Shown here piece after piece: positions 24,141 through 25,679 of a stretch of 64,000 nt of DNA. Each line of letters begins with the position of its first letter. The stretch's first letter is position 1. Source of the DNA: Octopus sinensis. Lineage: Eukaryota. The notes beneath the pieces are model-generated. The model was not told the DNA's origin. It worked only from the letters and a program-made list of their open reading frames with translations, and ran no database searches. Location: positions 15,252,001 to 15,316,000 of the forward strand of contig NC_043004.1 of assembly GCF_006345805.1 (NCBI RefSeq), in the 5' to 3' direction. Made by a program: the position numbers and the translations under genes.

Positions 24141-24945
24141 CGAGGTCTGATAAATTAGTATCCGGACTGTTGCCATACTAAAGAAATTAAAGTACACAAA
24201 GTAAAGCGGCTGGGAAAAGATTGACCTCGAGCTCTGCTGTGCATGCCCACTAAGGTTTAGCATTGCAGCTTATTGTCGTGTCAATACCTGCTGTGAAGCC
24301 TACGCAAAGTTGCAGAAAATGTACAGAGAGGAGTGTATGAGCCACACACAAGTGTACGAGTGGTTCATATGTTTCCAAGATAGCAGAGAAAATTTCGATA
24401 GTGACAAACGTTCTGGGAAACCTGCAATCAGCAGAACTGAGAAAAACATTGCAGATGTACATGCAGCTGTGAGGGTAAATCGTCGAACCACCATCCATGA
24501 TTTATCAAAAGATGTGCATATTAGTAACGGTTCACTTGAGTTCATTATCATTGCAGATTTGAGTATGAGATGTGTGTCTCTCAAGTTTGCACCAAAACTG
24601 CTTTCGGCAGACCAAAACGACAGTCGGGTTTCAAATGTACAACATCGCCTTCATTTTGGCGAGAAGGATGAGAACTTTTATAAAACATTGCGAAGGCCTC
24701 TGAACAGGTACCGCAGGCTTTTGGCAAATTCTGATGCAGATTCACTACTCAACTTTCTCTGTCATGGTTAATGCGATGATCACACGCTATACAGCGTCCT
24801 TCCAAACACTGCTGTAAATAGCGGAAGTGAAGCTAGAACGTAAAACCTTAGTGCGCATGCACAGCGGAGTTCAAGGTCAATCTTTGCACAGCAGCTTTGC
24901 TTCGTTACTATGCCGACAGTCCGGATACTTATTGATCAGACCACG
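24141..24945 (+). mobile_element. Non-autonomous mariner (Tc1/mariner) element with long TIRs and TA TSD
   Basis: TA|cgaggtctgataaattagtatccggactgt ... acagtccggatacttattgatcagaccacg|TA. Inverted similarity extends over 24141-24271 vs 24830-24945. Contains a transposase fragment. Confidence 0.93.
24310..24771 (+). pseudogene. Truncated mariner transposase: N-terminal DNA-binding region (HTH1-linker-HTH2), no catalytic domain
   Basis: MSHTQVYEWF..F, DKRSGKP (RSGRP-like linker), NRRTTIHDLSKDVHISNGSLEFII..DLSMR (second HTH), FAPKLL (WVPHEL-equivalent). Similarity stops at DENFYK, just before the expected first catalytic Asp. ORF begins at a TTG, not an ATG. Confidence 0.9.
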
Positions 24946-25192: not shown

Positions 25193-25679
25193 ATATTGCC
25201 AGAGATATTAATAGTTATCACCAAGCTAACATAGCAGTTCAGAAAAATATGACGAATGCTGTCATTAATTAGCTCCAAAAGACCATCGCCTCTAGCTAGT
25301 AATGTGACACAGAAAACTGTGTCCATCATAACCTTCGAACAGGAGAGGTCGGCAGCTTCTCCTTGCTGGTCTGGCATCCACAGACTAGTTTCGAGGTGGT
25401 TGCCTCTTATGAATGTAGAGTAGCAGAACCCACCCAGCGTCGCTGCTGACCGACTGTTCGAAGGATTATTTACCTAAATTTAGTGGAATACATCCACTGG
25501 ATTTCAAAAATAGAAATATCATCATTTCTAATTGTCTTTTATGGAGACTACGGCATCGGTATTGGATATTAATAGTTATCGCCATGTTAGCTTGGCGATA
25601 ACTATTTATATTCAGTACCGCTGCCGTAGTCTCCTTTAGAGAGAATTAGAAATAATAATATTTCTATATTGCCAGAGAT
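25193..25679 (-). mobile_element. TSD-flanked ~460-bp insertion with an HHR-like motif and a terminal fold-back (Penelope pseudo-LTR or retrozyme-like)
   Basis: Identical 14-bp direct repeats atattgccagagat at 25193-25206 and 25666-25679. Direct redundancy at 25204 and 25565 (361 bp apart). Hairpin 25510-25584 / 25593-25667. HHR-like motif at 25378-25418. Confidence 0.75.
25378..25418 (-). ncRNA. Degenerate minimal type-I hammerhead ribozyme motif
   Basis: Minus strand: CUACA-uUcAUaA-GAGG caacca CCUC-GAAA-CUAG-UC-UGUGG. Stems I and II pair, stem III is the palindrome ACUAGU, triplet GUC. The CUGANGA box has 3 substitutions. Confidence 0.6.

What the first reader, a model, noticed from the sequence alone, without database searches (positions are those of the whole stretch)
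25193..25679. TSD-flanked ~361-nt hammerhead-containing unit with terminal redundancy and inversion: possible retro-copy of a circular or tandem RNA
Seen: perfect 14-bp direct repeats (atattgccagagat) bracket the insert. gatattaatagttatc(a/g)cca occurs at 25204 and again 361 bp later at 25565. It is followed by an inverted segment (25585-25667) whose reverse complement reads across that junction (...gttatcgccaagctaaca, as at 25214-25229). The HHR-like motif sits near the middle of the unit, not at its ends. No coding similarity is apparent. Established: animal non-LTR retrozymes are small non-coding HHR units that yield circular RNAs, and Penelope pseudo-LTRs occur as tandem and inverted copies. 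Inference: reverse transcription passed more than once over a circular or multimeric template, with a strand switch.
Basis: partly seen in the sequence, partly recalled or inferred. Interest (0 to 1): 0.75.

Follow-up and report, generated by a model that had tools for sequence, protein, structure and literature searches.

The report
Penelope-pasted hammerhead retrozyme, head-to-head copy
This 487-base insert is an old, mutated copy of a many-copy, protein-less 361-base repeat with a hammerhead-ribozyme motif, joined head to head with a short second copy in the pattern known for Penelope-type jumping genes, whose enzyme likely pasted it in; such parasites (animal retrozymes) are known, and whether this one travels as an RNA circle is untested.

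Summary
Confirmed: 14-bp duplication, 20-nt redundancy, inverted arm. The insert belongs to a dispersed non-coding family (361-366 nt unit; 2,045 candidate places) whose sense is the minus strand. The family hammerhead has a U3-A8 core, compensatory changes in stems I and II, and a palindromic stem III that changes ACTAGT>ACATGT>ACGCGT; this copy has G5>C and is probably dead. Copies end at two fixed 3' sites 56 nt apart (the Penelope 'tail'), have ragged 5' ends, form partial tandems up to 3.5 units and never carried their own ORF in 161 loci. Head-to-head pairs join one short-ended and one long-ended arm (40 of 43; 16 of 16 in a position-ordered sample; repeated in a sister family). So the inversion is best read as a second cDNA primed at the other nick, not a strand switch, and the 'junction' is no real junction. 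The template was longer than one unit and uncut or re-ligated; circle versus tandem read-through is open, and a mild pile-up of 5' ends before the ribozyme leans linear. New member of a known kind (non-LTR retrozyme, non-autonomous Penelope-like element); this scan has noted the same kind on other genomes.

The parts
25193..25206 (.). Target-site duplication, left copy (14 bp); its last 3 nt also match the element's short 3' end
   Evidence: family duplications of 8-14 bp
25204..25584 (-). Main arm: 381 nt = one 361-nt unit plus 20 nt; 5'-truncated at 25584, 3' end on the family's short site (unit position 19-20)
   Evidence: 32 differences from the family majority over 361 nt
25204..25223 (-). 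Terminal redundancy, second lap (19 of 20 identical to 25565-25584)
25377..25419 (-). Type I hammerhead: stem I 25419-25414 with 25382-25377, core 25413-25407 (U3-A8 variant, G5>C at 25411 in this copy), stem II 25406-25403 with 25396-25393, palindromic stem III ACUAGU, predicted cut after 25383
   Evidence: other copies read the intact base at 25411 (table 3)
25332..25464 (-). Long rod that encloses the ribozyme (outer helices 94% and 89% paired in 50 family sequences)
   Evidence: unit fold z = -4.5
25585..25667 (+). Inverted arm: 83 nt, unit positions 354 to 75, 3' end on the family's long (tail) site; last 2 nt shared with the duplication
   Evidence: 3 differences from the family majority over 75 nt
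25666..25679 (.). Target-site duplication, right copy (14 bp)

Best explanation
This is a decayed copy of a many-copy, non-coding 361-nt hammerhead repeat family, made of two 5'-truncated copies joined head to head between a 14-bp duplication, and it was likely inserted by the reverse transcriptase-endonuclease of a Penelope-like element acting in trans. Shown: the family, its two fixed 3' ends 56 nt apart, ragged 5' ends, partial tandems without an ORF, the short-plus-long pairing of arms, and ribozyme covariation. Inferred mechanism: the enzyme cut the AT-rich target with a 14-nt stagger; one 3' end (ending GAT) primed on the RNA at the short site and was extended 381 nt, through the uncut or re-ligated ribozyme site and 20 nt past one full unit; the other 3' end (ending AT) primed at the long site and was extended 83 nt; repair joined the two cDNA ends. 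The template was a more-than-unit-length RNA: a read-through of a tandem copy, or a circle made by dimeric ribozyme cleavage and ligation. This copy's ribozyme has since lost G5 and is predicted inactive.
For: Family: 2,045 first-look candidates, 40 scored, best other copy 89%; 565 exact matches to the intact ribozyme of younger subfamilies, 0 for the reversed control. 3' ends: 86 short, 65 long, 40 other of 191 pieces in 111 loci. 64 of 111 loci are head-to-head; where both arms end on a site, 40 of 43 are short+long (p 1e-9), and 16 of 16 in 24 loci taken in genome order. Sister family of 352 nt: 11 short+long, 1 long+long, 3 with another end in 26 loci. Duplications of 8 nt or more in 10 of 15 pairs outside simple repeats (one of the 10 is a TTA run the filter missed) against 8 of 210 mismatched flank pairs. 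Arms longer than two units in 7 loci, up to 3.5 units. Ribozyme: both-side changes in stem I (UA22/CG20, AU33/GC13), stem II (GC22/AU20, GC30/AU9) and stem III; 128 of 148 stem III hexamers are palindromes of three kinds. The genome holds RT + GIY-YIG elements, the commonest with the same UUGAUAA core, an ACATGT palindrome and two alternative 3' ends. Two internal initiation sites, extension of both strands and uncut RNA as substrate are reported for a Penelope-like enzyme in vitro (PMC11167929); inverted 5'-truncated copies and a tail at one end are described in PMC8557442.
Against: No autonomous element sharing this unit was found: 0 of 50 GIY-YIG loci carry it as their terminal repeat (one holds an unrelated neighbouring copy), out of 5,029 candidates. 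No empty site was seen. The tail here is 56 nt, longer than the 30-40 nt in print. In this copy the two arms share no derived base, so a common template is not shown for it. Covariation counts are inherited changes among related copies, and the number of pairs with both-side changes (12) does not beat the shuffles (94 of 500); 29 of the loci in the census were picked by a pattern that demands an intact core and one palindrome.
Confidence: 0.87

Rival explanations
1. The unit is only the pseudo-LTR of an autonomous Penelope-like element not yet found, and these are dead-end stubs of it.
For: Same ends, tail and inversions as autonomous elements (PMC8557442); only 50 of 5,029 GIY-YIG candidates were examined.
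Against: The unit wraps onto itself with a 361-366 nt period for up to 3.5 laps with no ORF between; 77 of 151 site-ended arms exceed one unit by more than 25 nt (many picked by long queries); a natural 775-aa Penelope-like ORF hits only 1 of 161 family loci, and there beyond a 400-nt microsatellite; three subfamilies evolved in the ORF-less form.
Confidence: 0.06
2. One reading: one reverse transcriptase ran more than once round a circular RNA and then switched strand or folded back to make the inversion.
For: Arms run through the predicted cut site: 0 of 18 unselected arms that reach it stop within 6 nt; laps and arms of one insertion share alleles found at no other locus about ten times more often than pairs of loci do.
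Against: A switch or fold-back gives no reason for the inverted arm to end on the other fixed site in 40 of 43 and 16 of 16 pairs; the 8-nt spacer belongs to the inverted arm, not to the first cDNA. 0 of 18 is also what the background stop rate allows (P 0.26). 5' ends pile up mildly just ahead of the ribozyme core (13 of 59 within 20 nt, 6.4 expected, p 0.009; counted by eye from the printout), which suggests a linear start or a stop signal. The circular-template half alone stays open at about 0.35.
Confidence: 0.05
3. Redundancy, tandems and inversion arose in DNA after insertion (local duplication, fold-back repair, gene conversion).
For: In L126 the laps differ by 0.6-1.4% but the inverted arm by about 3%, as later duplication would give.
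Against: In L123, L129, L135 and L138 laps and arms are about equally diverged; the duplication brackets both arms; DNA events would not respect two fixed RNA positions.
Confidence: 0.02

Closest known systems
Animal non-LTR retrozymes (Cervera and de la Pena 2020, PMC7229834, passages read; Li, Clavereau and Pollet 2026, bioRxiv 10.64898/2026.07.22.740005, parts 1-3 of 5 read)
   Same: Non-coding unit of about 300-350 nt, low GC, one type I hammerhead per unit, monomers and short tandems, duplications longer than 4 bp, proposed to depend on Penelope-like elements.
   Different: Here mostly dispersed 1-2 lap insertions with Penelope end signatures mapped copy by copy; core is U3-A8; no circular RNA or cleavage shown; no parent pseudo-LTR found.
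Insertion units of endonuclease-bearing Penelope-like elements (Craig et al. 2021, PMC8557442, passages read; Frangieh et al. 2024, PMC11167929, parts 1-2 of 4 read)
   Same: 5' truncation, partial tandem, adjacent inverted 5'-truncated copy, tail at one end, two initiation sites, AT-rich and microsatellite targets (14 of 29 pairs have a simple-repeat flank).
   Different: No RT-GIY-YIG ORF; tail 56 nt (43-46 nt in the sister family) against 30-40 nt; the unit repeats on itself.
Type I hammerheads with palindromic helix III and the U3-A8 core variant (Cervera and de la Pena 2014, PMC4209133, passages read)
   Same: 6-bp helix I, 4-bp helix II, 2-bp helix III with palindromic loop thought to need a dimer; U3-A8 covariation described in Schistosoma Penelope-like elements.
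   Different: Here three successive palindromes in one family; this copy has G5>C.

Membership tests
Animal non-LTR retrozyme | Short non-coding unit without LTR, PBS, PPT or ORF | tested here: met
   361-nt unit, longest open frame 80 codons; no tRNA in 5 loci; no own ORF in 161 loci; PBS and PPT not searched as such
Animal non-LTR retrozyme | Type I hammerhead in each unit | tested here: met
   Family level. This copy: motif present, G5 mutated. Rfam models do not score it
Animal non-LTR retrozyme | Tandem copies with at least two ribozymes | tested here: met
   L086 2.6 units, L126 3.5 units with three exact intact motifs in a row; no long satellite array seen; the window copy has one ribozyme
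Animal non-LTR retrozyme | Self-cleavage of the RNA | not testable with these tools
   Covariation only
Animal non-LTR retrozyme | Expression as unit-size linear and circular RNA | tested here: inconclusive
   No RNA holder on record; runs guessed as RNA hold family pieces as contigs only
Penelope-like element (insertion type) | 5' truncation, partial tandem, inverted 5'-truncated copy | tested here: met
Penelope-like element (insertion type) | Two alternative 3' ends (tail), tail at one end | tested here: met
   unit positions 18-22 and 71-80; 40 of 43 and 16 of 16 pairs mixed
Autonomous Penelope-like element | Own RT + GIY-YIG ORF | tested here: not met
Non-autonomous derivative of a named Penelope-like family | Sequence shared with the pseudo-LTR of an autonomous element | tested here: inconclusive
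   None in 50 GIY-YIG loci of 5,029 candidates

The most novel reading that the evidence does not exclude
The family travels as a circular RNA, and one dimeric Penelope enzyme bound to a single RNA primes the two target nicks at two different fixed sites, one protomer at the short site and one at the long site. That would explain the near-strict short-plus-long rule and the shared alleles of the two arms, and would make these mini-elements a simple substrate for working out the unresolved second half of Penelope integration.
Probability: 0.25. Interest if true: 0.62.

Novelty: new member of a known kind. Interest (0 to 1): 0.3.

Why it matters
As a locus it is an ordinary dead repeat. The family adds an invertebrate case in which a retrozyme-type unit carries Penelope integration marks copy by copy, which backs the proposal that animal retrozymes are moved by Penelope enzymes. 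Two details are usable: the counted short-plus-long rule (in print only as 'tail often at one end', in the passages I read) constrains how the two target nicks are primed, and the three successive stem III palindromes are natural evidence for selection on the dimeric ribozyme.

Tried and rejected
Rfam: no hammerhead or other real match; the miRNA hits only reflect the inverted repeat and lie far below their cut-offs. Autonomous partner: 30 + 20 GIY-YIG loci compared with the unit; the 65% match next to the ORF in L162 turned out to be an inserted copy of a sister non-coding family; the Penelope-like ORF piece in L133 is a neighbour beyond a microsatellite. Shared flanks that would mark a longer element: none reaching the element edge convincingly among 206 flanks. 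tRNA head: none in 5 loci. RNA: no RNA holder listed; four runs guessed as RNA, contigs only, cannot show ends, strand or circles. Empty site: not seen; run X17 has no cover of the flanks. L1-type twin priming on one linear RNA was considered and set aside, because the inverted arm ends on a fixed site and not next to the main arm's 5' start. Look-up of earlier findings by sequence gave nothing. The organism was not identified; one literature search used 'Octopus' as a guess and none of the 12 listed papers tied the term to retrozymes.

Full report
Observation. A 14-mer stands at 25193-25206 and 25666-25679 and nowhere else in the window (chance 6e-9 at a given place). The 20-nt redundancy is 19 of 20 identical at a distance of 361 nt, and 25585-25667 is an inverted copy. 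The ribozyme motif is on the minus strand, so that is the sense of the main arm. In sense orientation the insert reads: duplication, 83-nt arm in reverse, 381-nt main arm, duplication. Rfam scores no hammerhead here, and this copy's core is UUCAUAA.

The family. A search of the own genome (2.7 Gb, an animal by its content; not identified) gave 2,045 candidates, 40 scored, best other copy 89%. The window copy differs from the majority of 30 copies at 32 of 361 positions, so it is old. Near-identical contigs of this very copy occur in runs X15 and X16, which carry different species labels but belong to one study, and X15 may be the assembly's source; contigs joining flank and element carry only 26 element letters, below the tool's 31-letter bar; no empty site was seen. 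Younger subfamilies exist, with 565 exact matches to their intact ribozyme pattern against 0 for the reversed control. The unit is non-coding, has no tRNA head in 5 loci and folds stably (z -4.5 and -3.5).

The ribozyme. The family core is UUGAUAA: the C3-G8 pair is replaced by U3-A8, a variant described in Schistosoma Penelope-like elements (PMC4209133, passages). On 50 of 62 available family sequences, stem I shows UA22/CG20 and AU33/GC13, stem II GC22/AU20 and GC30/GU10/AU9, and the stem III loop UA40/AU6; cells with a change on both sides number 77 against 34.5 in shuffles and 10-24 in slid controls, while the number of such pairs (12) does not beat the shuffles. These are a few inherited events, not independent ones. 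In a census of 148 ribozyme contexts 128 stem III hexamers are palindromes: ACTAGT 72, ACATGT 45, ACGCGT 11 (29 loci were picked by a pattern that demands the first). A short helix III with a palindromic loop is thought to need a second ribozyme to fold (PMC4209133), so keeping palindromy through two changes suggests selection on a dimer in the source elements (inference). The window copy has C in place of G5 (other copies read the intact base); that G5 is essential is recalled knowledge.

The ends. 3' ends fall on two sites, unit positions 18-22 and 71-80: 86 short, 65 long, 40 other among 191 pieces in 111 loci. 5' ends are scattered. 64 of the 111 loci are head-to-head pairs. Where both arms end on a site, 40 of 43 pair a short with a long end (p 1e-9 against random pairing). 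Those loci were chosen by similarity searches; in 24 loci taken in genome order from a pattern search (6 of 30 dropped as second hits in one insertion or a duplicated block; 4 of the 24 are places seen in earlier sets) 16 of 16 such pairs were mixed, with 7 single arms and 1 pair with other ends. A 352-nt sister family, 65% alike over 145 nt with a C3-G8 core, shows the same two-site pattern 43-46 nt apart: 11 mixed, 1 long+long, 3 other in 26 loci (its query forced one arm to be long). The window copy is such a pair: main arm short, inverted arm long. Duplications of 8 nt or more flank 10 of 15 pairs outside simple repeats (one is a missed TTA run) against 8 of 210 control pairs, and 14 of 29 pairs sit by simple repeats. 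In the window both inferred primer ends finish in AT and overlap the element by 3 and 2 nt.

Comparison with print. Penelope-like insertions are 5'-truncated, form partial tandems, often have an inverted 5'-truncated copy at the 5' end and a 30-40 bp tail often at one end only (PMC8557442, passages; PMC8969392, passages). A purified Penelope-like protein cut and extended both target strands, started at two internal RNA sites that bound the tail, used uncut RNA, and was predicted to be a dimer (PMC11167929, parts 1-2 of 4). Animal non-LTR retrozymes are 300-nt tandem units with type I hammerheads, expressed as linear and circular RNA (PMC7229834, passages), and a 2026 preprint argues that they derive from Penelope pseudo-LTRs (10.64898/2026.07.22.740005, parts 1-3 of 5; supplements not seen). 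I did not find a count of the short-plus-long rule in these passages or in four searches, which cover open-licence papers only.

Autonomous or not. Arms exceed two units in 7 loci and reach 3.5 units with no ORF between laps. A natural 775-aa RT + GIY-YIG frame hits 1 of 161 family loci, as a neighbour beyond a microsatellite. The genome has 5,029 GIY-YIG candidates; the commonest family among 30 loci ends in a UUGAUAA ribozyme with an ACATGT palindrome and two alternative 3' ends, but shares no alignable sequence with this unit. None of 50 loci is the parent. An enzyme source is therefore on hand but not named.

Template. The main arm crosses the predicted cut site, so a cleaved linear monomer cannot have been the template. 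0 of 18 unselected arms that reach the cut site stop there, which the background rate also allows (P 0.26); 3 of 32 selected arms stop at the second cut site. Laps and arms of one insertion agree at polymorphic sites (83% and 87% against 56% between loci) and share alleles seen at no other locus about ten times more often than pairs of loci (6 in 17,705 and 6 in 15,655 positions against 209 in 6.2 million): same source, though on small numbers and with gene conversion as a rival. In the window copy the arms share no derived base, and in L126 the laps are closer than the arms. Against a pure circle, 5' ends pile up mildly just ahead of the ribozyme core (13 of 59 within 20 nt, 6.4 expected; 6 within about 4 nt, 1.7 expected; counted by eye, a test prompted by earlier notes). 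RNA data decide nothing. I put a circular template at about 0.35 and tandem read-through at about 0.65.

Verdict. Real feature; new member of a known kind: a non-LTR retrozyme-type, non-autonomous Penelope-like element, here a dead head-to-head copy. The scan has noted the same kind in other genomes (43 findings in at least 18 genomes, unchecked notes). Interest 0.3.

Noticed in passing
window 24205-24771 (+): 188-codon frame resembling the start of a mariner/Tc1 transposase (HTH_48, E 3e-4, below the curated cut-off); a remnant unrelated to the insert.
   Followed up: partly
L192:1140-2275, L162:6453-6773, L057:47-439 and loci L182-L211: Sister non-coding hammerhead family, 352-nt unit, C3-G8 core, stem III ACTCGAGT or ACTCGGGT, young (96-99% alike), 2,112 candidates, same two-site head-to-head pattern, mostly in TA repeats.
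   Followed up: partly
L035, L037, L038, L047, L050-L060: Abundant Penelope-like family with 780-880 aa frames, a CxxC motif before the GIY-YIG domain, a U3-A8 hammerhead and an optional 3' extension of roughly 35 nt; may still be active.
   Followed up: partly
L126:1501-3154: 3.5 laps at 99% identity with an inverted arm about 3% away: either later local duplication or two templates.
   Followed up: partly
L220, L237, L092, L100, L101: Arms whose 5' end falls right at the first bases of the ribozyme core; a possible transcription start or reverse-transcription stop.
   Followed up: partly
L017:1136-1866: Complex insertion with three family pieces and about 230 nt of other sequence inside one apparent duplication.
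   Followed up: no
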